From: a virus | Direction: 5' to 3' (one strand) | UHGV virus genome: UHGV-0379469 | DNA: 35,405 nucleotides | Shown here: positions 1 to 35,405 of the stretch, piece after piece | How positions within the stretch are numbered: position 1 is the stretch's first letter | How the letters are laid out: each line of letters begins with the position of its first letter | The notes under the pieces: model-generated | What the model saw: only the letters and a program-made list of their open reading frames with translations | Database searches by the model: none | Told to the model about the DNA's origin: nothing | Translations under genes and position numbers: made by a program

Positions 1-405
1 ACACCACCAACGGGCTGGCTGAAATGTAACGGTGCAGCATTTTCTTCTGAAATGTATCCCAGACTGGCAAGGGCTTATCCCACCAATAAATTACCGGATT
101 TACGCGGTGAATTTATCCGTGGCTGGGATGATGGGCGCGGGGTGGATGCCGGAAGGGGCATCTTAAGCATGCAGGGGTGGTTAACAGGAAGTCATTATCA
201 TAATATTCGGTCATGGGATGCGTGGGATAACACGGTACTGGTGCCAAATGACAAAGGAGGGGATAGTCTGTTGTCGACAGATAACGCCGTCCGGCAAGGT
301 GCAATTAACGGTAGATTTACCAGTCAATACAGAACGGAATCCTCAGATGGGAATGAAAGCCGCCCACGCAATATTGCCTTCAATTATATTGTGAGAACCG
401 CATAA
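1..405 (+). CDS. H: tail fibre protein H, C-terminal variable (receptor-binding) cassette in the expressed orientation; the 5' part of the same gene is 34215..35405 (wraps the window junction)
   Basis: Reading frame is continuous across the end/start junction (...PVPWSSA|TPPTGWLKCNGAAF...); stop TAA 403-405; C-terminus ...RPRNIAFNYIVRTA matches the end of the silent cassette. Confidence 0.85.
   Translation, partial: TPPTGWLKCNGAAFSSEMYPRLARAYPTNKLPDLRGEFIRGWDDGRGVDAGRGILSMQGWLTGSHYHNIRSWDAWDNTVLVPNDKGGDSLLSTDNAVRQGAINGRFTSQYRTESSDGNESRPRNIAFNYIVRTA
16..137. repeat. inverted repeat, left copy (122-bp perfect core; imperfect homology extends about 35349..35405 and 1..152)
   Basis: Bases 16..137 are the exact reverse complement of 1309..1430 (checked base by base; first mismatches at 15 and 138). 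Confidence 0.9.
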
Positions 406-1016
406 TGAATAACGCGATATTAAATGATGACCTTATTGCCGTACAGGCAGGAAACATCGTCGTTTATAACTATGATGGTGAAACACGGGAATATATTTCC
501 GAATCAACTGAATATCTTGCTGTGGGTGTCGGTATTCCGGCAAATTCCTGTTTAGATGCCCCGGGCGCACATAAAGCGGGCTATGCTATCCGCCGTTCGG
601 AGAATTTAAGTTCATGGGAGTATGCGCCAGACCATCGTGGTGAAACCGTCTATAACACTGACACGGGAAACACCGAAGAAATCACGACGCTGGGTGACTA
701 CCCGAAAAATACAACCACTATCGCCCCGTTAACACCATACGATAAATGGGATGGTGAAAAATGGGTGACAGATACTGAGGCACAACATGGTGCCGCAGTA
801 GAAGCGGCAGAAACCAAGCGCCAGTCACTGGCTGATGCGGCAATGGCTTCCATAAGTCTGATTCAGTTGAAGTTGCAGGCCGGGCGGAAGTTGACGCAGG
901 CAGAAACCACCCGGCTTAACGCCGTGCTGGATTATATAGACGCACTGAACGCAATGGATATAAACATGGCACCAGATATCAACTGGCCGGAAATACCACT
1001 GGCAGCAGTCAGTTGA
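405..1016 (+). CDS. tail fibre assembly chaperone (Tfa; P2 G / Mu U-like)
   Basis: 203-aa ORF; ATG overlaps H stop (TAATG); sits directly 3' of the fibre tip as Tfa genes do. Confidence 0.75.
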   Translation: MNNAILNDDLIAVQAGNIVVYNYDGETREYISESTEYLAVGVGIPANSCLDAPGAHKAGYAIRRSENLSSWEYAPDHRGETVYNTDTGNTEEITTLGDYPKNTTTIAPLTPYDKWDGEKWVTDTEAQHGAAVEAAETKRQSLADAAMASISLIQLKLQAGRKLTQAETTRLNAVLDYIDALNAMDINMAPDINWPEIPLAAVS

Positions 1017-1022
1017 ATATAA

Positions 1023-1502
1023 CTAAGCCGCCCTCACGATATAGTTAAATGCAATATTGCGGGGGCGGGTTTCACTACCACCTGTGTTACCAATACTTCC
1101 TCGTGAATGAAGCGTTGGTGATGGAATCAAACTCCCTCCTGTATTTGTGGCATCAAGCCCCCTGCCTTGTGTATATGTTTTTTTGAAAATCGTGGCCAAC
1201 TCCCATTCATCCTTTGTGTCATATCCATCGTTAGCTACAACAATATGGCGGTGTTTTTCCAACATCCCGGTTTGAATGCTCAATAAAGCGCGTGCTGCAT
1301 CAATTCCTCGCCCATCATCCCAGCCACGGATAAATTCACCGCGTAAATCCGGTAATTTATTGGTGGGATAAGCCCTTGCCAGTCTGGGATACATTTCAGA
1401 AGAAAATGCTGCACCGTTACATTTCAGCCACCCCGTTGGCGGCGTGGCTGAGGGCCATGGAACGGGCACACCAACGGGCAGCGCAGAGCCTTCCCCCAAA
1501 CC
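1023..1502 (-). CDS. silent alternative tail-fibre C-terminal cassette (promoterless; would fuse to H after inversion)
   Basis: Minus-strand ORF whose first ~65 codons repeat the H junction peptide (GLGEGSALPVGVPVPW...RGWDDGRG) then diverge; own stop at 1023-1025; ends ...RPRNIAFNYIVRAA. Confidence 0.7.
   Translation of the reverse strand, partial: GLGEGSALPVGVPVPWPSATPPTGWLKCNGAAFSSEMYPRLARAYPTNKLPDLRGEFIRGWDDGRGIDAARALLSIQTGMLEKHRHIVVANDGYDTKDEWELATIFKKTYTQGRGLDATNTGGSLIPSPTLHSRGSIGNTGGSETRPRNIAFNYIVRAA
1309..1430. repeat. inverted repeat, right copy (perfect core)
   Basis: Exact reverse complement of 16..137. Confidence 0.9.
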
Positions 1503-1516
1503 AACGTTTTCGTTTT
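1491..1516. other. 26-bp hix/gix-like recombination crossover site (right)
   Basis: TTCCCCCAAACCAACGTTTTCGTTTT; its inner 14 bp (TTCCCCCAAACCAA) equal the reverse complement of the inner half of the site at 35335..35360; central AA dinucleotide; lies at the edge of the inverted repeat next to the invertase gene. Confidence 0.7.
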
Positions 1517-1570
1517 TATCCCTACCTATACCAACTATGTATTTTTCACGAAACAAAGAGGATGTTTTTT

Positions 1571-2170
1571 ATGCAAATTGGCTATATTCGTGTGTCAACA
1601 AATGACCAGAACACGGATTTACAACGCAATGCACTGAACTGCGCAGGATGTGAACTGATTTTTGAAGATAAAATCAGCGGAACGAAATCAGCCAGACCGG
1701 GATTGAAAAAACTGCTCAGAACGCTATCAGAAGGAGATACGCTGGTTGTCTGGAAGCTGGACAGACTGGGCAGAAGTATGAAACACCTGATCACGCTTAT
1801 TGAGGAATTGCGAGAAAAAGGTGTTAATTTCCGTAGTCTGACGGACAGCATTGACACATCAACACCCATGGGGCGTTTCTTTTTTCACGTCATGGGGGCT
1901 TTAGCCGAAATGGAACGTGAATTAATTGTAGAGCGTACACTGGCCGGGCTGGCAGCAGCACGCGAACAAGGACGCATTGGCGGACGTCGCCCGAAGTTGA
2001 CAAAAGAACAACACGAGCAAATAGCGAGGCTGATTAAAAACGGTCATGACAGGAAACAACTGGCGATCATTTACGACATCGGCATATCGACGATTTATCG
2101 TTATCACCCTGTAGGCGATATACAGGCTGAAGAAACAACCAGGCAGACTCAGGAAAATGAAAACCGCTAA
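1571..2170 (+). CDS. site-specific DNA invertase, serine recombinase of the Hin/Gin/Cin/Pin family
   Basis: MQIGYIRVSTNDQNTDLQRNAL... N-terminus with catalytic-serine motif, C-terminal HTH; ~199 aa; adjacent to the invertible segment. The ORF-track start at 1376 is an in-frame upstream extension. Confidence 0.9.
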   Translation: MQIGYIRVSTNDQNTDLQRNALNCAGCELIFEDKISGTKSARPGLKKLLRTLSEGDTLVVWKLDRLGRSMKHLITLIEELREKGVNFRSLTDSIDTSTPMGRFFFHVMGALAEMERELIVERTLAGLAAAREQGRIGGRRPKLTKEQHEQIARLIKNGHDRKQLAIIYDIGISTIYRYHPVGDIQAEETTRQTQENENR

Positions 2171-2189
2171 TCTGACCATTAGCGGTTTT
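2161..2189. terminator. bidirectional intrinsic terminator between convergent invertase and U
   Basis: Perfect 10-bp stem AAACCGCTAA/TTAGCGGTTT with 8-nt loop, U-rich on both strands after the stem. Confidence 0.5.
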
Positions 2190-2196
2190 GCGTTAA

Positions 2197-2691
2197 TCAA
2201 AACAGCCCTTTAACGGAGCTGGCCGCGCTGTTAAGGGATGATGTGACCTTATCTTTGAAGCCGGACAGCATATCACTGAACGATGAGGATTGCAGACGCT
2301 CCCGCAAATCCTCATCACAGCGTTCAAGGGTCAGTGAAAATTCTATCTTTTTCGCCTTACCGTAGCGATCAAACTCGGAACGGGTCGTATTCGTTTCAGT
2401 CAGTACATACATGCCGTAAATCTGCCCGACACCATCAATCAGAGGCCAGGGGCGTCCTGTATATGCCTGCGTGGTCAGCAACGAAAGCGACACTTCGCCA
2501 CCTGTAATTTCAGGATAAAGCACGCCGGAAAGCACGATGCGATCATCACCTGCGCCGATATACTGCCAGCTTGCTGAACGGTTAACGCGTTCATTTTTCA
2601 CATGCCGCCAGCTTTTGTTTTGCTGTAACTGCTGATGCGGCAATGTGCGCAGCTCAAAAACAAACATGCCGTAGATCATCATCATGGCCAT
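2197..2691 (-). CDS. U: tail protein U
   Basis: 164-aa ORF immediately 3' of the tape measure gene on the same strand; size and position as P2 gpU. Confidence 0.7.
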   Translation of the reverse strand: MAMMMIYGMFVFELRTLPHQQLQQNKSWRHVKNERVNRSASWQYIGAGDDRIVLSGVLYPEITGGEVSLSLLTTQAYTGRPWPLIDGVGQIYGMYVLTETNTTRSEFDRYGKAKKIEFSLTLERCDEDLRERLQSSSFSDMLSGFKDKVTSSLNSAASSVKGLF

Positions 2692-2697
2692 GACTCC

Positions 2698-5541
2698 TCA
2701 ATCTTTATCGTAAAAACTGCCACGTCCGGCACGGTCGCGTCGTTCCAATTCTGCCCTGACCATTTCACCGACCAGTTTCGCCAGTTCGCGGGGATTCTGT
2801 GTAACAACGTTATGCAGATGAACATGAATTTCACCGCCAAATCCGGAGGCAACAGGCTCCCGGTTACGGGAAGTTGCAGGAGCTGATGCCACTGGCGATC
2901 GTATGGCCTCCGCCACCGGGCGGGAGCTGGCCGCAACAACAGGGACCAGCGCCGGAGGCAGCGGAGCCGGAACCACGGGTGTGATATTAATTGCGGGGGC
3001 AGGCTTACTGACCTGCGCAATCTTCCGCTCCTGCCACTCCCCACGAACAGCAAGTGCGCGGGGCAGGTTCTTAAAGACAATATCGCCGGGGCCAATGCGT
3101 TTTTTCGTCTCATCAACCAGCTTACCTGTGTTATCAGCAATTTTGCTGAGTCTGCGTAGCGTACCGGTATTGCTGTCTGTGAGCGGTTTGTTGTCTTTGG
3201 GCTTATCACCTCCGGTACCATTGCCATTTTCCACAGGCTTCGGCGGATTGATTTTCGCCAGGTCCCCCTGAAGCAAGGCAACCTTGTCCTGAAGAATGGC
3301 CGCACGCTGTGCGTCTTCGATTTTCTTGCGCGCCCTTTCCGCTTCATCCGGAAGCACACCGAGCTTTTCAAGTATCCACGCCAGCGTATCCAGCAACATT
3401 TTTGCAGGTGTCAGAACAAGCTGTAACGCACCGCCAAGAACGTTACCGAATATCTCGCCAGCACTGGTACATTTATCCAGCGTTTCCTTGCTGGACTCCA
3501 TCGGTGACAGCAGCGATTTAAACCAGTTAAACACCTGGCTGATCCCGCTTCCGATTGCGTCAAAAACAGGACCAAACCGTTCAAAGGTTTCGCGCAACGG
3601 GGTCAGCCTTTCCATAATCCCGCTGAACACCCCGGCAAAAAATGCCCTGATGGGATCCCAGTATTTCCAGATGAGAACGGCAGCTCCGGCGAGCGCAGCC
3701 ACAATAAGACCAACCGGACTGAACAACGCCCCGATAGCGCCCCCCAGTAAAGAAACGGAACCCGTCACCATTCCCCACAGCGCAGGCAACACCCTGACGA
3801 CATTCATTGACCGGGTAAGAATGTCAAAACCAAGACGCAGGGTGGCCAGCTTCCCGTAAAGCACCCCAATAACCAGCGACAACGAGCCAATCGTTGCAGT
3901 CATTGCCAGCAACGCACCGCCTGCTATCAGCAGCTGGCGCGTCAGTACCGGATGGGCCTGCGCCAGCGCCGTCACCCTTGATACCACCCGCGTGAGCCAC
4001 TGCGTGACAGAACGCAGCGGACCGTCAATCAGATCTGCAATGCGGATGCGCAACCCTTCCCATGCACTGCCGAGTGATTTCAGATCGCCGTCAAGGTTGT
4101 TGGCCATAACCTTTGCTGTGCGTTCAGCCTCACCGCGCGCGCCTTCAAGTTCTTTTCTCAGTTTGGGTAAGGAACCGTCACCCGCTGCATCAACGAGCGC
4201 CATAAACGATGTGAAAGCCTCTTCTCCGGCAATGTCCTTAAAGAACGATACCCGGTCAACTTCCCCGTATTTGCGGGTGGCTTTATAAAGGTCGGCCAGC
4301 ACATCCTCCATCGGGCGCATTTTGCCCCCGGCATCCGAGACAGACACGCCCAGCTCTTTCAGCGCCTCTGCTGCCGCCTTTGGCGGTGATGCCAGACGAG
4401 CCAGGCTGGCACGCATTGCCGTCCCGGCATCACTTCCCCTGATACCCATATTCGCCAGCACGCCCGCCATCGCTGCGGCCTGCTCCAGCGATATTCCCAG
4501 CTTGCCCGCCACCGGACCTGCATATTTCATGGTTTCGCCCAGTGCGCGAAGGTCAGTGTTGGTACGGGTAAACGCTGCGGTGAGTGTGTCACCGACCCGA
4601 TCCATCTGGTCAGCAGAAAGGCCGAACTGCGTCAGGATATTTGAGCCAATATCTGCCGTCTCGCCGAGATCCATACCGCCAGCCGTTGCCATGCTCAGCA
4701 CGCCGGGAAGCGCAGCCTGAATGGCCTGCGGTGTGAAGCCAGCCATTGCAAGAAATGCCTGTCCACTGGCGGCATCGCCTGCGGTGAACTGCGTTTCAGA
4801 GCCAAGTTTTAACGCCTGCTCACGCAGCGCCTTAAACTGCGGGCTGTTCTGGTCGATTCGCGTCAGTGCCTGAACGCGGGACATCTCTTTGCCGAACCCG
4901 ATCGCAGGCTGCAAAAAACGCCCGGCAGCATAGCCGCCCGCCGCTGCCGCACCAATTGCCAGCGCACCACCTGTTTTCAGTTTTCCCGCTGTTTCCTGCG
5001 CGCGCGAATACCGCTCACGCGCCCGCGTTACACGCGCAAGCGCCTGCCGTTCGCGTTCAAGCTGGTTGTTGTACTGTTCGGTGCGTCTGATGGCCTGCTG
5101 GATGGTGTTATCGCTGCCTGTCAGGGAAATGCCGTGGCGTTTCAGCTCTCCGCCAAGTTCCCGCATTTTCTGAATTTCCCGTGTGCGCGATTCATTCAGG
5201 CGTTCAAGCCGGGTGCTTAACTGCTGCATCAGCTTTTGTTGTTTTTCGCTGAGCACTGTACCCGTGCGTTGTAACTGATTAAGGGCGTTAAGCTGGCGTC
5301 GTGCTTTCAATATGCCAGCATCCGCTTTACTGACAGCGTCACGGGCGCGCTCAAATGAACGCGCCTGACGCTCGAGATTTTTGATCGCCCCCTGCGTTCG
5401 CTGGATGGAGTCACCAAACTGCCCCATCAGGCGGCGGGCGTTTTCGGCAGGCCGGGTCAGCCTGTCAACGGCGCTGAAAGCGACCCGGATGTCAAGAGTC
5501 TTCATTGTCTGCATTCCCGCTGCGAAGTGCCGCCCGCTCAC
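2698..5541 (-). CDS. T: tail tape measure protein T
   Basis: 947-aa ORF, Ala/Gly-rich and coiled-coil N-terminal half with hydrophobic central segments; follows the E/E' chaperone pair; exact start uncertain (alternative Met 27-36 nt downstream). Confidence 0.85.
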   Translation of the reverse strand: MSGRHFAAGMQTMKTLDIRVAFSAVDRLTRPAENARRLMGQFGDSIQRTQGAIKNLERQARSFERARDAVSKADAGILKARRQLNALNQLQRTGTVLSEKQQKLMQQLSTRLERLNESRTREIQKMRELGGELKRHGISLTGSDNTIQQAIRRTEQYNNQLERERQALARVTRARERYSRAQETAGKLKTGGALAIGAAAAGGYAAGRFLQPAIGFGKEMSRVQALTRIDQNSPQFKALREQALKLGSETQFTAGDAASGQAFLAMAGFTPQAIQAALPGVLSMATAGGMDLGETADIGSNILTQFGLSADQMDRVGDTLTAAFTRTNTDLRALGETMKYAGPVAGKLGISLEQAAAMAGVLANMGIRGSDAGTAMRASLARLASPPKAAAEALKELGVSVSDAGGKMRPMEDVLADLYKATRKYGEVDRVSFFKDIAGEEAFTSFMALVDAAGDGSLPKLRKELEGARGEAERTAKVMANNLDGDLKSLGSAWEGLRIRIADLIDGPLRSVTQWLTRVVSRVTALAQAHPVLTRQLLIAGGALLAMTATIGSLSLVIGVLYGKLATLRLGFDILTRSMNVVRVLPALWGMVTGSVSLLGGAIGALFSPVGLIVAALAGAAVLIWKYWDPIRAFFAGVFSGIMERLTPLRETFERFGPVFDAIGSGISQVFNWFKSLLSPMESSKETLDKCTSAGEIFGNVLGGALQLVLTPAKMLLDTLAWILEKLGVLPDEAERARKKIEDAQRAAILQDKVALLQGDLAKINPPKPVENGNGTGGDKPKDNKPLTDSNTGTLRRLSKIADNTGKLVDETKKRIGPGDIVFKNLPRALAVRGEWQERKIAQVSKPAPAINITPVVPAPLPPALVPVVAASSRPVAEAIRSPVASAPATSRNREPVASGFGGEIHVHLHNVVTQNPRELAKLVGEMVRAELERRDRAGRGSFYDKD

Positions 5542-6030
5542 GCCAGCTAACCACTTCGCCGGGCGTCATCATGAAGATTTCGGCGGGCGACCAGTTAAAA
5601 ATGGCGGCAATATCCGCCACCAGATCTTCGATGTGCTCAAAGCACACCAGGGTGATTACGCTGCCGTCTCCTGCACGCTCTTCGCGCCAGAGTCTGGCTC
5701 GCTCATAAAATTTACAGCCACAGCGCACAACTGAATAAAATCGCGTGACGACATTTTTTTAATCATCACTTCATCCAGTCGTGGCGAGGTCACGCGAGGC
5801 AACAGCGTGAACATGGTATCCGCTTTCAGATTCAGCACATCAGACAGCGACAGACCACGCAGGGATCCAGCCTGCTCAATAGCCCCGGTGATCTCCACAT
5901 ACGTGATTTTTTCGCCACCACGCTCAATTGGTCGGGTCAGTTTTACGCCACGTTCGACAGCCATATCCTCACCTGCCGTCACATCATCCGCCACGGTGTT
6001 ATTCCGGGTTTCAGTATCGATGTCTTTCAT
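5492..6030 (-). CDS. tail assembly chaperone E+E' fusion made by programmed -1 ribosomal frameshift
   Basis: The -1 frame is closed by TAA immediately 5' of the A-run and open from it to the stop at 5492-5494, giving ...IKK|NVVTRFYSV... overlapping the start of T. Confidence 0.65.
5656..6030 (-). CDS. E: tail assembly chaperone E
   Basis: 124-aa ORF between tail tube and tape measure genes; contains the A7 slip site near its 3' end. Confidence 0.8.
   Translation of the reverse strand: MKDIDTETRNNTVADDVTAGEDMAVERGVKLTRPIERGGEKITYVEITGAIEQAGSLRGLSLSDVLNLKADTMFTLLPRVTSPRLDEVMIKKMSSRDFIQLCAVAVNFMSEPDSGAKSVQETAA
5754..5760 (-). promoter_or_regulatory. slippery heptanucleotide AAAAAAA for the E/E' -1 frameshift
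   Basis: Seven consecutive A on the coding (minus) strand inside E, at the point where the -1 frame opens. Confidence 0.6.
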
Positions 6031-6085
6031 CAGTTGTCTCCTTTTCAGTCAGAGGCGACGCACTGCGCCGCCTGCATATTACTTA

Positions 6086-6598
6086 TCAGCCAAGCCCAAG
6101 CGCGGAACGGATACGGTCAGGCACAATGTCCTTGCCGTCCTTCCGGTAGATGTGGTTCAACAGGTCGATTTCCCACAGCGGGCGATCGTTAACGCTCAGC
6201 TTGTAGTAGGTGTTTTTGACAGCGTAAGTGTGTGATGTGGCTTCGCCCTGTTTGGCTTCCCCCATATCAATTTCCGTCACACGCCCACGCATCTCGATTT
6301 CATACAGATCGCTTTCTGCATCGGTGTAGTATTCACCCGCAAAACGCAGCAGCGTGCCGTCAATCGTGCCGCCATATTTAAGGAACAGCGCACGAACAGC
6401 TCCCCCCATGACAAAACTCGCATCAAGCGCGGAGTCGTCCAGACCGAGATCAATACTTACCGCCCCCATCATGCCACCACCACGATAGCTGTCGGTTTTG
6501 CGCGTCAGTTTGGGCGGCGTGACGGATGTCACTTTACCCACTTCGTTTTCACCATCCACAAACAACGTAAAAAAGCGAAGATGTTTTGGTACAGCCAT
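6086..6598 (-). CDS. FII: tail tube protein FII
   Basis: 170-aa ORF directly after the sheath gene; stop/start juxtaposed with FI at 6598. Confidence 0.85.
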   Translation of the reverse strand: MAVPKHLRFFTLFVDGENEVGKVTSVTPPKLTRKTDSYRGGGMMGAVSIDLGLDDSALDASFVMGGAVRALFLKYGGTIDGTLLRFAGEYYTDAESDLYEIEMRGRVTEIDMGEAKQGEATSHTYAVKNTYYKLSVNDRPLWEIDLLNHIYRKDGKDIVPDRIRSALGLG

Positions 6599-7782
6599 CA
6601 GGCACCTCCCAGCACCGCAAATGCGGGACCAAAGAATTCATCAGTAAACGTCTGGTAAAGCTCCATGTCTTCCAGTGGCGGAACGGGCGTATATTTGTAG
6701 CGAATACGCACACGCCCCTGACGTAAATCCGTGGTGCCGTTATCCACCACGTCATACCAGCACTCCGCGCCAATCAGTTTCCCGGCAGTAACCAGCGAAT
6801 CCAGTTTTGCCCTGATGGCACTGATAACATCCTTCACGTTCGCAGGCGTCAGTGGACTGTCGATGGTTTCAAACTGCGCTTCCGCAATTGAATCAGCCAG
6901 CACCTGTGCGGTTCGGGTATACACCTCAAAGATGTAGGCGTTCGTTTCCGGTGTGCGGTTGCCCCAGAAGCGGAACCCGTTGCGACGAATAATGGTCGTG
7001 ATTTCTTTGTTGTTGAGGCTGTTGGCATCGCTGTCTTCGGCCTGCAACGACCAGAACACATGCCTCGACATCCCCAGCACATTTTTAACCGGAACGTTGG
7101 ACAGTGATTTGTGCCAGCCCTGCTCATGGTCAATGTACGCACGAAGGCCGCACGCATAGGCAGGCGCGGGGAACGTTTCGTTTTTGCCACTTTTCGGGTT
7201 GTAGGCGATGAAGTCCGGCCATAAGAGCATCACCTCACGTTCGTTGAATTTCTGGCGATAGGTAATCGCCTCAGCCATCGTGTTACAGCCGTGACATGAG
7301 GCATACACAAACGCGCGCAGTTTACCTGCAATCACGCACAGGGATTTTGTTACAGCCTCCGTGTCCAGCTCCGGCGCGGCCAGAATACGCGGACGGTATC
7401 CGATGCTTTCATCCTGCTCTGCAACAAGCAGCGCATACATCCCCGTATAGCTGCCGTCATCCTCAGAACCACCGATAACCAGTTGATCCTGCGTCTTTCC
7501 GTCTTCTTCTTTGTGTTCAGCCACGCGAACGACGATCACCTTTGTGCTCACCTGGTCTGAGATGGCCTTAAGCGCACGATAAAGCGTCCCCGTTGTTCCG
7601 CATTTTCCCAGCACGTCATTGACGCGGGTCAGCAGTGTGGGCTTGTTCAGCGGGAACAGCTTCGCGTCCGCATCATCCGCCGTTGCCACGATACCGATAA
7701 CGCTGGAATCAACATCGTTAATCGCTGTTACCAGGTCGGTATTTTCCGTAACACGGGCACCATGAAAACGAGTTTCACTCAT
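6598..7782 (-). CDS. FI: contractile tail sheath protein FI
   Basis: 394-aa ORF with motifs recalled from P2 sheath protein (…GFRFWGNRT…, …YTPVPPLE…). Confidence 0.9.
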   Translation of the reverse strand: MSETRFHGARVTENTDLVTAINDVDSSVIGIVATADDADAKLFPLNKPTLLTRVNDVLGKCGTTGTLYRALKAISDQVSTKVIVVRVAEHKEEDGKTQDQLVIGGSEDDGSYTGMYALLVAEQDESIGYRPRILAAPELDTEAVTKSLCVIAGKLRAFVYASCHGCNTMAEAITYRQKFNEREVMLLWPDFIAYNPKSGKNETFPAPAYACGLRAYIDHEQGWHKSLSNVPVKNVLGMSRHVFWSLQAEDSDANSLNNKEITTIIRRNGFRFWGNRTPETNAYIFEVYTRTAQVLADSIAEAQFETIDSPLTPANVKDVISAIRAKLDSLVTAGKLIGAECWYDVVDNGTTDLRQGRVRIRYKYTPVPPLEDMELYQTFTDEFFGPAFAVLGGA

Positions 7783-7939
7783 AGCTTCAGCCCCTTGTAT
7801 CCGTTAAATGATTCAGCAACAATCATCACCCACCACGCGCGTAATCTCACCCCTGCGCTATTCTCCCGCCACGGCGACAACAAAAAGCAGTAACCCCCTC
7901 CGCACGCACATGCGACCATGCCGCACAGGGAGGGAACAG

Positions 7940-9049
7940 ATGACCGACACCACCATGCAATTGCTCAGTCAGGGCACAGCCCCCGTGAAAATGCCGGATT
8001 TTGATATTCTCGCGGAGGGTAAAACGCTGTCAGGCGTGGCAGAGCGCCTGATGAGCCTGTCACTGACCGACAACCGGGGATTTGAGGCGGACCAGCTCAC
8101 CATCACGCTGGATGATGCGGATGGTCAGTTGCAGCTACCGCCACGGGGCGCGCGCCTGACGGTTCTCATTGGCTGGAAAGGAGAACCGCTGACAGAAAAA
8201 GGCACTTACATTGTTGATGAAATCGCTCACGAAGGACCGCCGGACAGGCTGACTGTTTCAGCCAGAAGCGCAGATTTTCGGGATGAATTTAACGTTAAAC
8301 GTGAGGTGTCCTGGCATGATGTGACCGTTGAGCGTGTGGTATCCGCCATCGCTCATCGGTATGGTCTGAAACCGCAAATCAGCGAAATGCTGATGGATAT
8401 CGAAATCGACCACGCCGACCAGACCGAAGAAAGCGACATGTCCTTCCTTACGCGCATGGCGGAAATGCTGGGCGCAATCACCACGGTAAAAAGCGGCAAT
8501 CTGTTATTCATCATGCCAGGTGGTGGCGTGAACGCGCAGGGCCAGCCGTTGCCCTCGTTCGCCATTACACGCAGCAGCGGCGATCGCCATCAGTTCCGCA
8601 TTGCTGACCGCGAGGCGTATACGGGGGTACGCGCTTACTGGCTTGATCTTAATTACGGGAAAAAGAAAAAAGTCAGCGTGAAACGCCGCAAACCGCCAAA
8701 ACCCAAAAAGGAGAAAAGCAGCAGCCGTGAAGGTGATTATATGGAAGGCGCGGAAGGCAATGTGTTTGTGTTACGCAAGACTTATCAGAACGAGCAGGCA
8801 GCAAGACGCGCAGCGGCGGCAAAGTGGCAGCAGCTACAACGCGGAGCTGCATCATTCTCCATCACGCTGGCGCGTGGACGTGCGGAACTCTACCCCGAAA
8901 TGCATGGCACGGTGACAGGCTTCAAAAGTGACATCGACAATCAGGACTGGATTATTGCAAAAGCCGAGCACACCATTGATAACAGCGGCTTTACCACGCA
9001 GCTTGAGCTTGAAGCAAAAATCCCGGAATGGATAGCAGAAACAGAGTGA
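7940..9049 (+). CDS. D: tail protein D (late control gene D family)
   Basis: ATG at 7940 preceded by AGGGAGGGAA; protein contains ...YTGVRAYWLD..., a Lys/Arg-rich linker and ...FSITLARGR...; ORF-track start 7808 rejected (upstream 44 codons are S/P/T/R-rich and lack an RBS). Confidence 0.8.
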   Translation: MTDTTMQLLSQGTAPVKMPDFDILAEGKTLSGVAERLMSLSLTDNRGFEADQLTITLDDADGQLQLPPRGARLTVLIGWKGEPLTEKGTYIVDEIAHEGPPDRLTVSARSADFRDEFNVKREVSWHDVTVERVVSAIAHRYGLKPQISEMLMDIEIDHADQTEESDMSFLTRMAEMLGAITTVKSGNLLFIMPGGGVNAQGQPLPSFAITRSSGDRHQFRIADREAYTGVRAYWLDLNYGKKKKVSVKRRKPPKPKKEKSSSREGDYMEGAEGNVFVLRKTYQNEQAARRAAAAKWQQLQRGAASFSITLARGRAELYPEMHGTVTGFKSDIDNQDWIIAKAEHTIDNSGFTTQLELEAKIPEWIAETE

Positions 9050-9118
9050 GCAACTTAGATATATTAGCTCAGACTTAAGCTGGCAAGTTTACAGTATAGA
9101 ATTAAACATAAACGACGG

Positions 9119-9169: not shown

Positions 9170-10192
9170 TTAATACGCATTTAATTTAAATTTGTATTTG
9201 CTTTCTATGTAATGGATAAATTCAATTATGCTTTTTTCTATCGCGTCTAATATATGAATATATCCATCCCGATTTAAGGTCCTATCCAACTCAAAATGAT
9301 GAACTATCCCATGTCTATATTGTATGATTTCAGAAATTCGATTCTCAAGGTAATCAACTGATTTTCCAATTCTTTTTTTCTTATAAAGAATCGCTCTCAC
9401 ATCTATATCTAGCCACTCTTTATATGCTTTGTTTAGGAGGGTTAAGTTTTGAAAAGTGTAATTTCTTGCAATAACACTTTCTATTGAAATATTTCCTTTC
9501 TCTATCTCAAGCAGAATATCAAAATCAACTTTTTGCTTATACGATGTTCTTTTTGCTATTGCGAAAGGATCGTACTTTATAAGTATTTGAAAAGCTCTAG
9601 AGAAAAAATATTCAAACATAGCAACCGCAAAAGGTACTAATCCATTATATATAACTCTACTGGGATCCATACATTGCATATCATCAAAGTATTCGGATAA
9701 GCCGCCATCTTCCGGCAGGTTTAATTTAATAGAAGGTTCAGGTAAGGCATGTTTAACAGCGGAAATCTCATGATGAACATGATTAAATATTGAAGAAATG
9801 CCACGACTGATCGGACTACTAGAATCCCCCCATAGAGGAGCGTATCTATTTTTCCCATAATCACCTATAAGTGTTCCACCAAAAAGACTCCTTGCGCCTT
9901 TTAGAACATCATTAAGCATTTTTACATCATGCCAACTAGCGCTAGATAAATTACGCACATGCAATGCCCATTTATTACCAGATATGTGTAGTTCGTCATT
10001 TGAAACAGGATATATATCAGCCGAAACTCCATCTGTAGATTTGAAGTCCGTATCATCAAACCAAGAGTAATTTAACGTTCCTTGGGGCCATTCCCACAAA
10101 TGTTTACACCTTTTAAAACCTAAATTTTCAAGATAATTTTTAAGTTCGTTTCTAGTTGCTTTTTTAGGGTACAGCGTTATATCTCTTCCCAT
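9170..10192 (-). CDS. hypothetical protein, AT-rich cargo gene; candidate anti-phage defence or abortive-infection protein
   Basis: 340-aa ORF with AGGTG RBS; much more AT-rich than the flanking phage genes; convergent with D and divergent from ogr; C-terminal RHGIVHH fits the Rx4-6H HEPN motif; no family recognised. Confidence 0.6.
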   Translation of the reverse strand: MGRDITLYPKKATRNELKNYLENLGFKRCKHLWEWPQGTLNYSWFDDTDFKSTDGVSADIYPVSNDELHISGNKWALHVRNLSSASWHDVKMLNDVLKGARSLFGGTLIGDYGKNRYAPLWGDSSSPISRGISSIFNHVHHEISAVKHALPEPSIKLNLPEDGGLSEYFDDMQCMDPSRVIYNGLVPFAVAMFEYFFSRAFQILIKYDPFAIAKRTSYKQKVDFDILLEIEKGNISIESVIARNYTFQNLTLLNKAYKEWLDIDVRAILYKKKRIGKSVDYLENRISEIIQYRHGIVHHFELDRTLNRDGYIHILDAIEKSIIEFIHYIESKYKFKLNAY

Positions 10193-11809: not shown

Positions 11810-12829
11810 TTAATCCCCCGTGGACACTGCGTGGACACTCACGCCACCTTTCAGCGGATTAAGGGCCACCGCATCCTGCAGGTAATCCGGTGCAAAATGT
11901 GCATATGCCATTGTTTGCTGAATGGTTGCGTGGCCAAGAATCTTCTGAAGCGCAATAATGTTTCCTCCGTTCATCACAAAATGGCTGGCGAACGTATGCC
12001 GCAGCACATGTGCAGCCTGGCCTTTTGGCAAATCGGGCTTAACTCTTTTCAGCGCCAAGCAGAATTCCCGGTACTTCACCTCAAACAAGCCGCCTGTTTC
12101 TCTGGTTTTGATCGCCTCACAAACTGCCTGCGAAATTGGCACTGTTCTCTTTCGGCCATTTTTGGTTTCAAGAAACGTTACACGGTTATGAACTATCTGT
12201 TCACCACGAAGCTTACAGGCTTCACTCCAGCGCGCCCCCGTGCTTAAACACAAAAGCGCAACACGCCAGTAATCGCCCTCCAGTGTATCGAGCAATAACG
12301 CCACTTCCTTCTGGGACAGGAAAGCCATTTCTCGTGGAGATACATAAAGAATAGAAATTCCCCTTACCGGATGTTCTGCATCCCAGAGGCCTATTTTCTT
12401 CAGTACGGTAAACATTCCGGATAACCGATTCATGTATCTGTTAGCAGATGACGGTTTCAATCCATCAGCTATCTTTTGAGAACGCCACGCGATAATTTTT
12501 AGCTTATCAAGATCCACAGCCTGCATATCAGCGCCAAGCTCATTGATTATGTTGCGCAGTTGTTTTCGGTCTTCTTCCGCCTTACGCCTGTGCTGGCCGT
12601 GATACATCCACCACAACTCAAGCAAATCATTTAGCGTTCGACGATCACGGTAGCCCTGTATATATTCCCGCTTTTCAGCGTTCGCCATGATGTAGCGTTC
12701 AGTGGCCACCGCTACCGATTTTTTGTCAAATACCTTACGCACGCGCTTTCCCTTGCGTCCGTTCGGCCTGATGTCCAGCAAATAACGACCATCTTCGAGC
12801 TTCTTAATCGACATTGCGAAGCCCTCCAA
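11810..12829 (-). CDS. int: tyrosine integrase (P2 Int-like)
   Basis: 339-aa ORF; C-terminal catalytic region ...HVLRHTFASHF...LGHATIQQTMAYAHFAPDY with the R..H..R..Y signature. Confidence 0.9.
   Translation of the reverse strand: MEGFAMSIKKLEDGRYLLDIRPNGRKGKRVRKVFDKKSVAVATERYIMANAEKREYIQGYRDRRTLNDLLELWWMYHGQHRRKAEEDRKQLRNIINELGADMQAVDLDKLKIIAWRSQKIADGLKPSSANRYMNRLSGMFTVLKKIGLWDAEHPVRGISILYVSPREMAFLSQKEVALLLDTLEGDYWRVALLCLSTGARWSEACKLRGEQIVHNRVTFLETKNGRKRTVPISQAVCEAIKTRETGGLFEVKYREFCLALKRVKPDLPKGQAAHVLRHTFASHFVMNGGNIIALQKILGHATIQQTMAYAHFAPDYLQDAVALNPLKGGVSVHAVSTGD
11820..11838 (+). repeat. putative integrase arm-type binding site (dimeric direct repeat), overlaps int 3' end
   Basis: GTGGACActgcGTGGACAc; encodes ...VSVHAVST of Int. 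Confidence 0.5.
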
Positions 12830-33617: not shown

Positions 33618-34218
33618 TTCGTTGTTACCACCATCAGCCAGCAATTTCATGCGTTGTGCCGAAGCCGTCGGAACACGCATTACAGACATTCCGGTAGACC
33701 TCAACACGCTGTGGTCGCCGGACACCTGCCCGGTGCATCTGCTGCCTTATCTCGCCTGGGCGTTTTCCGTTGACCGCTGGGATCGCAACTGGCCGGAAGA
33801 GACAAAGCGACAGGTGATTCGTGATGCATGGCTGATACACCGACACAAAGGGACCATCAGCGCACTGCGAAGAGCCGTGGAGCCTCTCGGCTACCTGATT
33901 GAAGTAAAGGAGTGGTGGCAACTCAACGAGGAGCCAGGAACATTTCGCATTGTTGTCGGAGTACTTGATCAGGGCATCACCGATGAAATGTATCAGGAAC
34001 TTGAGCGCCTTATTGCGGATGCAAAACCAGTAAGTCGCCATCTGACGGGGCTGGCGATCAGCCTGAGTGTGAACGGAAAGATTTTCGTTGGTACGGGATG
34101 CTATCACGGCGATGCCCTGACGGTTTATCCCTACACCCCGGAGTCCATTATTGTCGAAGGGGATTATTTCCCTGCCCCGGCCATTCATTTAATTGATAAT
34201 CTGAGAGTAAACGCATGA
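33610..34218 (+). CDS. I: baseplate / tail protein I
   Basis: MSNSLLPPSAS...LNTLWSPDTCPVHLLPYLAWAFSVDRWD... as in P2 gpI; start overlaps J stop. Confidence 0.8.
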   Translation: MSNSLLPPSASNFMRCAEAVGTRITDIPVDLNTLWSPDTCPVHLLPYLAWAFSVDRWDRNWPEETKRQVIRDAWLIHRHKGTISALRRAVEPLGYLIEVKEWWQLNEEPGTFRIVVGVLDQGITDEMYQELERLIADAKPVSRHLTGLAISLSVNGKIFVGTGCYHGDALTVYPYTPESIIVEGDYFPAPAIHLIDNLRVNA

Positions 34219-35405
34219 CAGTGAAATACTACGCCATTCTGACTAATCAGGGCGCGGCACGACTGGCTAACGCGACGATGCTCGGCAGTAAGCTGAATCT
34301 GACGCAAATGGCCGTTGGTGATGCAAATGGTGTGTTACCAACACCAGACCCTGCACAAACAAAACTGATTAACCAGAAACGCATTGCACCGCTGAATCTT
34401 CTGAGTGTTGACCCTAACAATCAGAGCCAGATTATTGCGGAGCAAATCATCCCTGAAAACGAGGGAGGATTCTGGATCCGTGAGATTGGTCTTTATGATG
34501 ATGAAGGTGTACTCATTGCGGTGGCAAACTGCCCGGAAACGTACAAACCGCAGTTGCAGGAAGGCAGTGGACGCACCCAGACTATCCGCATGATTCTGGT
34601 TGTCACGAACACCGAAGCCATCACGCTGAAAATCGACCCGTCTGTGGTTCTGGCAACCCGCAAATATGTGGATGATAAAATCTCAGAGCACGAACAGTCA
34701 CGACGTCACCCGGACGCCTCGCTGACCGTAAAAGGTTTTACTCAGTTAAGCAGTGCAATTAACAGTGAATCAGAAACACTGGCCGCAACACCGAAAGCGG
34801 TTAAGGCTGCATATGACCTGGCTAACGGGAAATATACCGCCCAGAACGCCACCACTACACAAAAAGGGATTGTTCAGCTCAGTAGCGCCACGAACAGCAC
34901 GTCTGAAACGCTGGCAGCGACACCAAAAGCTGTTAAGGCGGTAATGGATGAAACGAACAAGAAAGCACCATTAAACAGCCCGGCACTGACCGGAACGCCA
35001 ACAACACCAACAGCGCCACAGGGGACTAATAGTACCCAGATCGCAAGCACGGCTTTCGTTATGGCCGCGATTGCCGCACTTGTAGATTCGTCACCTGATG
35101 CACTGAACACGCTGAATGAACTGGCTGCGGCGCTGGGCAATGACCCGAATTTTGCGACCACCATGACTAACGCGCTTGCGGGTAAGCAACCGAAGGATGC
35201 CACCCTGACGGCGCTGGCAGAGCTTGCTACATCAGCAGATAAACTCCCATATTTTACAGGGGCAGATCGTGCCGCGTTAACCGCGTTGACAAGTGTTGGA
35301 CGTGCCATTCTTGGTAAAACCAGCACTCAGGGAGTTCTTGATTACCTTGGTTTGGGGGAAGGCTCTGCACTGCCCGTTGGTGTGCCCGTTCCGTGGTCCT
35401 CAGCA
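34215..35405 (+). CDS. H: tail fibre protein H, N-terminal constant part (continues at 1..405 across the circular junction)
   Basis: ATG 34215 overlaps I stop; internal tandem repeat QLSSA.NS.SETLAATPKAVKA x2; no stop before the window end and in frame with bases 1..405. Confidence 0.9.
   Translation, partial: MTVKYYAILTNQGAARLANATMLGSKLNLTQMAVGDANGVLPTPDPAQTKLINQKRIAPLNLLSVDPNNQSQIIAEQIIPENEGGFWIREIGLYDDEGVLIAVANCPETYKPQLQEGSGRTQTIRMILVVTNTEAITLKIDPSVVLATRKYVDDKISEHEQSRRHPDASLTVKGFTQLSSAINSESETLAATPKAVKAAYDLANGKYTAQNATTTQKGIVQLSSATNSTSETLAATPKAVKAVMDETNKKAPLNSPALTGTPTTPTAPQGTNSTQIASTAFVMAAIAALVDSSPDALNTLNELAAALGNDPNFATTMTNALAGKQPKDATLTALAELATSADKLPYFTGADRAALTALTSVGRAILGKTSTQGVLDYLGLGEGSALPVGVPVPWSSA
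35335..35360. other. 26-bp hix/gix-like recombination crossover site (left)
   Basis: TTCTTGATTACCTTGGTTTGGGGGAA: 18 of 26 positions match the Salmonella hixL consensus as recalled (TTCTTGAAAACCAAGGTTTTTGATAA); inner half is the reverse complement of the inner half of 1491..1516. Confidence 0.7.

What the first reader, a model, noticed from the sequence alone, without database searches (positions are those of the whole stretch)
1..2170. Mu/P1/e14-type invertible tail-fibre tip segment with hix-like crossover sites and cognate invertase
Two 26-bp sites in inverted orientation (35335..35360 and 1491..1516) share the inner half TTCCCCCAAACCAA and resemble hix/gix sites. They bracket a roughly 1.56-kb segment holding two alternative fibre C-termini in opposite orientations, whose junction-proximal ~210 bp form an inverted repeat with a 122-bp perfect core. 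A Hin/Gin-family invertase gene follows. Both cassettes keep the reading frame of the H constant region through the crossover (...LGLGEG...). This predicts phase-variable host range. As far as I recall, canonical P2 lacks such a segment.
Basis: partly seen in the sequence, partly recalled or inferred. Interest (0 to 1): 0.6.

Follow-up and report, generated by a model that had tools for sequence, protein, structure and literature searches.

The report
Invertible phage tail-fibre tip switch
A P2-family (P88-like) E. coli phage carries a DNA segment that a Pin/Gin-type enzyme flips to swap the tip of its tail fibre; flipping at this locus was already shown by experiment in a 98%-identical prophage, so it is real but ordinary.

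Summary
Two 26-bp pix/cix/gix-like sites (35335-35360 and 1491-1516) lie in inverted orientation with matching TT/AA cores. They bracket 1,559 bp holding fibre tip A (+), one tail-fibre assembly gene (+) and tip B (-). The cassette leaders form a ~210-bp inverted repeat with a 122-bp perfect core. In-silico inversion keeps gene H in frame (531 vs 537 aa). The gene at 1571-2170 is a serine DNA invertase, 81.5% identical to e14 PinE and 71.5% to Mu Gin.

The window is a circularly permuted P88-like (Xuanwuvirus) genome, so H runs across its ends. E. coli genomes hold ~98%-identical prophages in both orientations. Two assemblies of strain E2348/69 differ only by an exact 1,928-bp reverse complement, whose junctions fall within 37 bp starting at the site cores. 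Goldberg et al. 2014 showed inversion at exactly that locus by sequencing and PCR. Its outer sites are identical to the window's and its invertase is 99% identical.

The feature is therefore already known.

One open point remains. Unlike Mu, P1, e14 and P88, this module has a single chaperone gene, which is antisense to H whenever tip B is expressed.

The parts
34215..35348 (+). Constant part of tail-fibre gene H (ATG 34215 to the crossover dinucleotide 35347-35348)
   Evidence: Translation. Pfam Phage_tail_fib N-terminal domain and Phage_fiber_2 repeats. The last 120 aa are 100% identical in EC9682.
35335..35360 (+). Left crossover site (pix/cix-like): TTCTTGATTACC TT GGTTTGGGGGAA
   Evidence: The inner half matches e14 pix at 11/12 positions and cix and gix at 9/12. 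It is identical to the site in E2348/69.
35349..35405 (+). Start of tip cassette A and of the left inverted-repeat arm (continues at 1)
1..405 (+). Rest of tip cassette A, currently fused to H (stop at 403-405). The left repeat arm ends near 150. Encodes a Collar domain plus a variable gp37/gp12-like tip.
   Evidence: Collar, E 1e-13; PDB 9CUY E 1e-17, 2XGF E 4e-14.
405..1016 (+). The only tail-fibre assembly (chaperone) gene, tfa. Its start overlaps the stop of cassette A (TAATG).
   Evidence: Pfam Caudo_TAP E 6e-33. No second copy in the window.
1023..1502 (-). Silent tip cassette B. It lacks its own start and is fused to H after inversion. The right repeat arm spans about 1295-1504.
   Evidence: Collar, E 1e-14; T4 gp37 tip 2XGF, E 2e-17. 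Expressed as the H C-terminus in STEC1590.
1491..1516 (-). Right crossover site. Its reverse complement reads AAAACGAAAACG TT GGTTTGGGGGAA.
   Evidence: Identical to the invertase-proximal site of E2348/69. The e14 invertase-proximal site also ends in ...AAACG TT GG.
1571..2170 (+). Serine DNA invertase (199 aa, catalytic Ser9 in the motif RVSTNDQ)
   Evidence: Pfam Resolvase + HTH_7. PDB Gin 4M6F, E 2e-91. Identity is 81.5% to PinE, 73% to Cin, 71.5% to Gin and 99% to the E2348/69 enzyme.
1589..1660 (+). Stretch homologous to the annotated recombinational (Fis) enhancer of P1 cin (gene nt 19-90)
   Evidence: 79% DNA identity to the P1 enhancer against 65% over the next 210 nt, with conserved blocks TCAACAAATGA and GCAGGATGTGA. 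Function is inferred.
2160..2189 (.). 12-bp-stem hairpin between the invertase stop and the gpU stop. It looks like a terminator that could work in both directions.
   Evidence: The scan reports it on the - strand only. The + strand reading is my own view of the sequence. Function is inferred.

Best explanation
This is a Pin/Gin/Cin-type site-specific DNA inversion switch in the tail-fibre gene H of a P88-like (Peduoviridae) temperate phage of E. coli.

Proposed mechanism:
1. Invertase dimers bind the two 26-bp sites.
2. A Fis-bound enhancer in the first ~90 bp of the invertase gene probably brings them together on supercoiled DNA.
3. Ser9 cleaves both sites at the central TT/AA dinucleotide, the subunits rotate, and the ends are rejoined.
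4. The 1,559-bp segment is thereby flipped.

The flip replaces the last ~155 codons of H (tip A, followed by tfa) with tip B. A lysogen population would therefore release virions with two different gp37/gp12-like receptor-binding tips.

Shown here: the sites, the matching cores, frame retention, the invertase family, and inversion in vivo at an essentially identical locus.
Inferred: dependence on Fis and the enhancer, and the change of host range.
For: Structure.

Invertase: Resolvase + HTH_7 domains, E 2e-91 to the Gin crystal structures, and 81.5% identity to PinE.

Sites: they align with pix, cix and gix, with the same TT core as pix and cix. Site R lies 68 bp from the invertase ATG, against 67 bp between the annotated G-segment boundary and gin in Mu.

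Both orientations occur in nature. D72 and AR_0013 match the as-found orientation in one piece. STEC1589 and STEC1590 match the in-silico inverted sequence in one piece.

Same strain, two states. E2348/69 assemblies NZ_CP059840.2 and NC_011601.1 are identical over 7,945 bp except for an exact reverse complement of 1,928 bp. The junctions fall inside the 37 bp that start at the site cores, not in the long perfect core of the repeat.

Published experiment: PMC4272514 Table S1 lists NC_011601.1 1891695-1893703 and 1892127-1893703 as flipping loci. Four variants were confirmed by PCR, and the printed inverted-repeat sequence equals window 35344..~140.

The window's two sites are identical to the outer sites of that locus, and its invertase is 197/199 identical.
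Against: No reads from this particular genome were available, so flipping of this copy is inferred from identity of all its parts.

The host-range effect has not been tested for these tips.

Conservation of the enhancer region could simply reflect the conserved RVSTNDQNT catalytic motif encoded there.

After inversion the only tfa gene is antisense to H, so it is not certain that the B state yields a functional fibre.
Confidence: 0.93

Rival explanations
1. The two orientations arise by RecA-dependent homologous recombination between the ~210-bp inverted repeats, and the invertase plays no part.
For: The 122-bp perfect core is long enough for RecA. The repeat arms are mosaics across strains. 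For example, the leader of the window's cassette A equals the leader of E2348/69 cassette C, so exchange or gene conversion inside the repeats does occur over evolutionary time.
Against: The E2348/69 isomers exchanged within the 37 bp that begin at the site core, and polymorphisms just inside travelled with the segment. Minority orientations of 10-50% within single colonies (PMC4272514) are far above what short-repeat RecA inversion would be expected to give (my own judgement, not measured here). An intact, 99%-identical invertase with canonical sites sits next to the segment.
Confidence: 0.04
2. The switch is effectively ON/OFF. Only the A state, with tfa co-transcribed, gives working fibres. 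The B state gives misfolded or absent fibres because no chaperone is made.
For: The window has a single tfa. B is always opposite to tfa in every locus examined. The tips are T4 gp37-like, and from general knowledge T4 gp37 needs the Tfa-like chaperone gp38. No promoter-like site that could drive tfa independently was found.
Against: Cassette B is an intact ORF kept at ~98% protein identity across prophages and at 62% in a P1-like phage with the same layout, which argues for selection on a functional product. Collar-type tips occur in many phage groups, including Synechococcus and Ralstonia phages, but whether those phages have tfa genes was not checked. Host strains often carry other prophage tfa genes that could act in trans.
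Confidence: 0.15
3. This copy is a frozen remnant that no longer inverts.
For: Only one orientation is seen in the window. It has two cassettes, whereas relatives have up to five, so it may have lost cassettes by deletion between direct sites.
Against: The invertase ORF is full length with the catalytic serine. Both sites are identical to those of the experimentally flipping E2348/69 locus. The same two-cassette layout is found in both orientations in different strains.
Confidence: 0.03

Closest known systems
Invertible tail-fibre locus of the P2-like prophage of EPEC E2348/69 (NC_011601.1 1891695-1893703; Goldberg et al. 2014, PMC4272514)
   Same: DNA is about 98% identical. The outer crossover sites are identical. 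The invertase is 197/199 identical and Tfa is shared. Inversion was shown experimentally.
   Different: E2348/69 has three tip cassettes and three sites, giving four isomers. The window has two cassettes and two sites, giving two isomers.
e14 P segment / PinE of E. coli K-12
   Same: It is the closest characterised invertase (81.5% identity). Its sites are the closest: inner half GGTTTGGGAGAA against GGTTTGGGGGAA, a TT core, and an invertase-proximal site ending in AAACG. The invertase gene follows the segment.
   Different: e14 has two chaperone genes, tfaP and tfaE, one per tip. It is a defective lambdoid element, not a P2-family phage.
Mu G segment / Gin and P1 C segment / Cin
   Same: The logic is the same: a constant 5' part of the fibre gene, alternative 3' parts in opposite orientation, 26-bp sites, and an enhancer in the 5' end of the invertase gene. 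The spacing from site to invertase gene matches Mu (68 vs 67 bp).
   Different: Mu and P1 have a symmetric Sv-U / U'-S'v layout with two chaperones and segments of 3-4.2 kb. Here the segment is 1.56 kb, has one tfa, and carries short collar-type tips.
Multi-cassette inversion regions of P1-like phage-plasmids (p15B Min type)
   Same: P1-like plasmids and Punavirus vB_EcoM-673R5 carry the same module at about 88% DNA identity, with several collar-type tips, one tfa and the invertase. Chromosomal relatives reach five cassettes.
   Different: The window has only two sites, so it is a simple flip-flop. The p15B sequence itself was not available, so the link to Min rests on literature (PMC6906374) and on memory.
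Escherichia phage P88 (type species of Xuanwuvirus)
   Same: The backbone is the same at 94.6% identity from the invertase gene through gpD, including the reversed FI-U tail block. The invertase sits in the same place (81% identity).
   Different: P88 carries a different, Mu-like segment content: a long fibre and two tfa genes.

Membership tests
Hin/Gin/Cin/Pin (Din) DNA invertase systems | Small serine recombinase with an N-terminal catalytic domain (Ser9/10) and a C-terminal HTH | tested here: met
   Pfam Resolvase E 2e-51 and HTH_7 E 1e-12. Gin structures 4M6F and 3UJ3, E ~1e-91, aligned 1-185 with the RVSTNDQ motif. Identity to Gin, Cin and PinE is 71.5-81.5%.
Hin/Gin/Cin/Pin (Din) DNA invertase systems | Two 26-bp sites, each made of two imperfect 12-bp half-sites around a 2-bp core, in inverted orientation with identical cores | tested here: met
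   The core is TT on both sites when read in the same sense. The inner half matches pix at 11/12 and cix and gix at 9/12.
Hin/Gin/Cin/Pin (Din) DNA invertase systems | Fis-dependent recombinational enhancer in cis, within the 5' end of the invertase gene | tested here: inconclusive
   The region homologous to the annotated P1 cin enhancer (window 1589-1660) is 79% identical, against 65% over the next 210 nt. It also encodes the catalytic motif, and Fis binding cannot be tested here.
Hin/Gin/Cin/Pin (Din) DNA invertase systems | The segment actually inverts in vivo | tested here: met
   Shown for the ~98%-identical locus, not for this copy. The E2348/69 assemblies are exact inversion isomers, published PCR and sequencing confirm flipping, and both orientations occur among two-cassette prophages.
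Mu G / P1 C type tail-fibre switch | Constant 5' fibre part fused in frame to alternative 3' parts | tested here: met
   H_A is 531 aa and H_B is 537 aa after in-silico inversion. STEC1590 encodes the 537-aa form.
Mu G / P1 C type tail-fibre switch | Each alternative tip is followed by its own assembly gene (U and U') | tested here: not met
   The window has one Caudo_TAP gene only. Mu, P1, e14, P88, 500465-2 and P2-T22 each have two.
p15B Min-type multiple inversion system | More than two crossover sites, giving several invertible sub-segments | tested here: not met
   Only two sites were found in the window (with a looser pattern). Relatives have three to six.
Xuanwuvirus (P88-like Peduoviridae) | Collinear nucleotide similarity to P88-like genomes, including the reversed FI-U tail block and the invertase next to the fibre genes | tested here: met
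   Identity is 94.6-96.5% over window 1577-9063 to P88, P884B11 and Shae_phiSM. The gene order is the same. Only about a quarter of the genome was compared.

The most novel reading that the evidence does not exclude
The flip changes two things at once: which tip is fused to H, and whether the sole Tfa gene is co-transcribed with H. The unit [tipA -> tfa -> <- tipB] has no site between tfa and B, so tip B is always made with tfa antisense. Either B is a gp37-like tip that folds without a Tfa-class chaperone, or Tfa here acts as an accessory or adhesin component whose presence is itself phase-varied. In relatives with three to five cassettes, this would give combinations of tip and Tfa state.
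Probability: 0.3. Interest if true: 0.4.

Novelty: already known. Interest (0 to 1): 0.15.

Why it matters
It assigns the window correctly as a P88-like temperate phage with a working-type fibre switch. It also shows that this genome would produce mixed virion populations, which matters for host-range prediction, prophage typing and assembly comparison, because inversion isomers look like structural variants. The biology itself is textbook. The only open question of some interest is how a gp37-like tip (B) is assembled when the single chaperone gene faces the wrong way.

Tried and rejected
- **Independent tfa promoter.** I looked for one that would rescue the B state. The sigma-70 scan found none in 1-2800. 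A P2-late-type TGT-N12-ACA dyad lies at 1538-1555, but the pattern is not enriched (7 found, 8.9 expected) and by eye no suitably spaced -10 follows it, so I dropped it.
- **Second tfa copy.** tblastn found none elsewhere in the window.
- **Read-through from the FI-U operon.** I considered leftward read-through from the convergent FI-U late operon as a source of tfa transcripts. The terminator-like hairpin at 2160-2189, and the different gene context in P1-like plasmids that carry the same module, argue against a general role.
- **Close homologues of tip B with a downstream tfa.** I searched the phage collection. The only close hit (62%) has the same layout, and the rest are 42% identical or less, so this was uninformative.
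- **Further crossover sites.** I looked for more sites in the window, including sites that might explain the reversed FI-U block. None were found.
- **Neighbouring ORFs.** PADLOC found nothing for the ORFs at 9170-10192 and 11810-12829.
Full report
**1. What is in the sequence**

The window is a circular permutation of a phage genome. Tail-fibre gene H starts at 34215, runs off the end of the window and continues at base 1 to a stop at 403-405 (531 aa). The ends are truly contiguous, because the prophage of E. coli D72 matches a query spanning the junction in one piece at 98.4% identity (H26).

- 35335-35360 reads TTCTTGATTACC-TT-GGTTTGGGGGAA.
- 1491-1516 has the reverse complement AAAACGAAAACG-TT-GGTTTGGGGGAA.

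From the shared half-site inward, the two cassette leaders form an inverted repeat. It runs from 35347 to about 150 on one arm and from 1504 to about 1295 on the other. It is 95.5% identical over 200 nt and has perfect runs of 122 bp (16-137 = rc 1309-1430), 23 bp and 22 bp. The repeat finder recovers it, together with a second, weaker inverted repeat at the 3' ends of the cassettes (344-404 / 1024-1084).

The segment between the core dinucleotides is 1,559 bp. Inverting it in silico at the cores keeps H in frame and gives a 537-aa protein with a different C-terminus.

**2. What the parts are**

| Part | Coordinates | Evidence |
|---|---|---|
| H, N-terminal part | from 34215 | Phage_tail_fib and Phage_fiber_2 domains |
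| Tips A and B | 35349-405 (+); 1023-1502 (-) | Phage Tail Collar domain |
| tfa | 405-1016 (+) | Caudo_TAP assembly protein |
| Invertase | 1571-2170 (+) | Resolvase + HTH_7 |

Against solved structures, both tips match the T4 gp37 long-fibre tip (2XGF, E 2e-17 for B, including the terminal NIAFNYIVR strand) and short tail fibres (9CUY, T4 gp12). Both tips carry an HxH motif by inspection (HYH in A, HRH in B).

The invertase matches the Mu Gin crystal structures at E ~1e-91 over residues 1-185, with the catalytic serine motif RVSTNDQ. It is 81.5% identical to e14 PinE, 73% to P1 Cin, 71.5% to Mu Gin, and 99% (197/199) to the enzyme of the E2348/69 prophage.

I aligned the sites with real pix, cix and gix sites taken from the K-12, P1 and Mu records:

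| Site half | Window | Best matches |
|---|---|---|
| Inner half | GGTTTGGGGGAA | pix GGTTTGGGAGAA (11/12); cix and gix (9/12) |
| Core | TT | same as pix and cix |
| Invertase-proximal outer half | ends in AAACG | same ending as in e14 |

Site R lies 68 bp before the invertase ATG, against 67 bp in Mu.

The stretch homologous to the annotated P1 cin enhancer (gene nt 19-90, window 1589-1660) is 79% identical to P1, against 65% for the next 210 nt. This is suggestive only, because the same stretch encodes the catalytic motif.

**3. Where it comes from**

From the invertase gene through gpD (1577-9063), the window is 94.6-96.5% identical to Escherichia phage P88, Xuanwuvirus P884B11 and Citrobacter phage Shae_phiSM. 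It shares their unusual layout, in which the FI-FII-E-T-U tail block is on the opposite strand from H. All these records annotate a DNA invertase at this place.

The content of the invertible segment is mosaic within the group. P88 has a Mu-like segment with two tfa genes. The window's segment is instead found at about 98% identity in many E. coli prophages. It is also found at about 88% in P1-like phage-plasmids and in the Punavirus vB_EcoM-673R5.

**4. Does it invert?**

Three lines of evidence say it does.

(a) Among prophages with the same two-cassette layout, both states exist. D72 and AR_0013 match the as-found orientation in one piece. STEC1589 and STEC1590 match my in-silico inverted sequence in one piece, with H annotated at 1,614 bp, which is 537 aa. 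At 80% coverage or better, 37 genomes match the as-found query and 34 match the inverted query. Many of these hits are multi-piece, so the counts are rough.

(b) Two independent assemblies of one strain, E2348/69, are identical over 7,945 bp except for an exact reverse complement of 1,928 bp with 0 mismatches. The polymorphisms that distinguish the repeat arms moved with the segment. The exchange therefore happened within the 37 bp that begin at the core dinucleotide of each site, not in the long perfect core of the repeat. That is what a site-specific crossover predicts, and it is not what RecA acting on the longest identity would favour.

(c) Goldberg et al. 2014 (PMC4272514) list NC_011601.1 1891695-1893703 and 1892127-1893703 as phase-variable loci in a P2-like prophage. 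They found four co-existing variants, confirmed them by PCR, and described three alternative C-termini. Their printed repeat sequence equals window 35344 to about 140. Locus position 2948 of L004 is record position 1891695, so this is exactly the locus I compared.

The window's two sites are identical to the two outer sites of that locus. All cis and trans components of the experimentally flipping system are therefore present here.

**5. Mechanism**

The best-supported account is the standard Hin/Gin-family reaction (established knowledge for this family):
1. Invertase dimers bind the two sites.
2. They are assembled with a Fis-bound enhancer on supercoiled DNA.
3. They cleave at the 2-bp core through a phosphoserine link, rotate and religate.

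The identical TT/AA cores in inverted orientation allow religation after a 180-degree rotation.

The outcome is a swap of the last ~155 codons of H. The change of receptor specificity is inferred from the gp37/gp12-like nature of the tips and from Mu, P1 and carotovoricin precedents cited in PMC4272514. It was not tested.

**6. What differs from the classical systems**

Mu, P1, e14, P88, phage 500465-2 and the P2-like phage of strain T22 all carry one assembly gene per tip. The window has a single tfa.

In every relative examined, the unit tipA -> tfa -> <- tipB is rigid, with extra stand-alone cassettes on either side. TUM1887 has up to five cassettes. Tip B is therefore always expressed with tfa antisense to H.

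I found no promoter that would express tfa independently. A hairpin at 2160-2189 probably stops read-through from the convergent FI-U operon.

According to PMC4272514, about 90% of E2348/69 cells are in the reference state. In NC_011601.1 that state has tfa antisense to H.

Three possibilities remain open: B folds without Tfa, Tfa comes from elsewhere, or the B state is defective. This is the only part of the finding that is not textbook.

**7. Other evolutionary notes**

The repeat arms are mosaics between strains. The leader of the window's cassette A is identical to the leader of E2348/69 cassette C. D72 and STEC1590 both carry the GGTTTAGGAGAA variant at the H-proximal site, even though they are in opposite states. 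Gene conversion or homologous exchange inside the repeats therefore also occurs. This probably maintains the 122-bp perfect core, alongside selection on the Collar domain it encodes.

**8. Verdict**

The feature is already known: near-identical loci are annotated in many E. coli genomes, and one has been shown by experiment to flip. Interest is low. The residual interest lies in the single-chaperone asymmetry.

Noticed in passing
window 35405/1 junction: The window is a circularly permuted complete phage or prophage genome. Gene H runs across the ends, and D72 matches across the junction in one piece.
   Followed up: yes
window 405-1016 versus 1023-1502: The module has only one tail-fibre assembly gene for two tips (up to five tips in relatives). 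Tip B can never be co-oriented with it. Mu, P1, e14 and P88 have one chaperone per tip.
   Followed up: partly
window 2197-7782 (- strand): The tail block gpU-T-E-FII-FI lies on the strand opposite to H and gpD, unlike my recollection of P2. Two late operons therefore converge on the invertase gene. This is conserved in P88-like phages. No crossover-like sites flank the block.
   Followed up: partly
window 2160-2189: A 12-bp-stem hairpin (AAAACCGCTAAT...ATTAGCGGTTTT) lies between the invertase stop and the gpU stop. The scan reports it as terminator-like on the - strand, and by eye it could also terminate on the + strand.
   Followed up: no
window 35347-150 and 1295-1504; L001-L005: The inverted-repeat arms are mosaic between strains. 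The leader of the window's cassette A equals that of E2348/69 cassette C. This points to gene conversion among the cassette leaders.
   Followed up: partly
L008 (ON470615.2), L015 (NZ_CP091679.1): The same multi-tip, single-tfa, invertase module occurs at about 88% identity in P1-like phage-plasmids. It has therefore been exchanged between P1-family and P2-family elements.
   Followed up: partly
window 1538-1555: A TGT-N12-ACA dyad, the form I recall for P2 late promoter activator sites, sits between site R and the invertase ATG. The pattern is not above chance in the window, and by eye no matching -10 follows it.
   Followed up: partly
window 9170-10192 (- strand): A 340-aa ORF between gpD and the regulatory genes has only a sub-threshold HEPN RiboL-PSP hit (21.9 bits against a cutoff of 28.4) and no PADLOC match. 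It may be an accessory gene. Phage 500465-2 has an unnamed gene of the same size at the same place.
   Followed up: partly
L014 (NZ_CP128963.1, TUM1887), L002 (EC9682): Relatives carry four or five tip cassettes, some in direct orientation with their own internal sites (AGCATGAAAACG-TT-GGTTTGGGGGAA). They are shufflon-like multi-inversion versions of the same locus. The window's two-cassette form may be a deletion derivative.
   Followed up: partly
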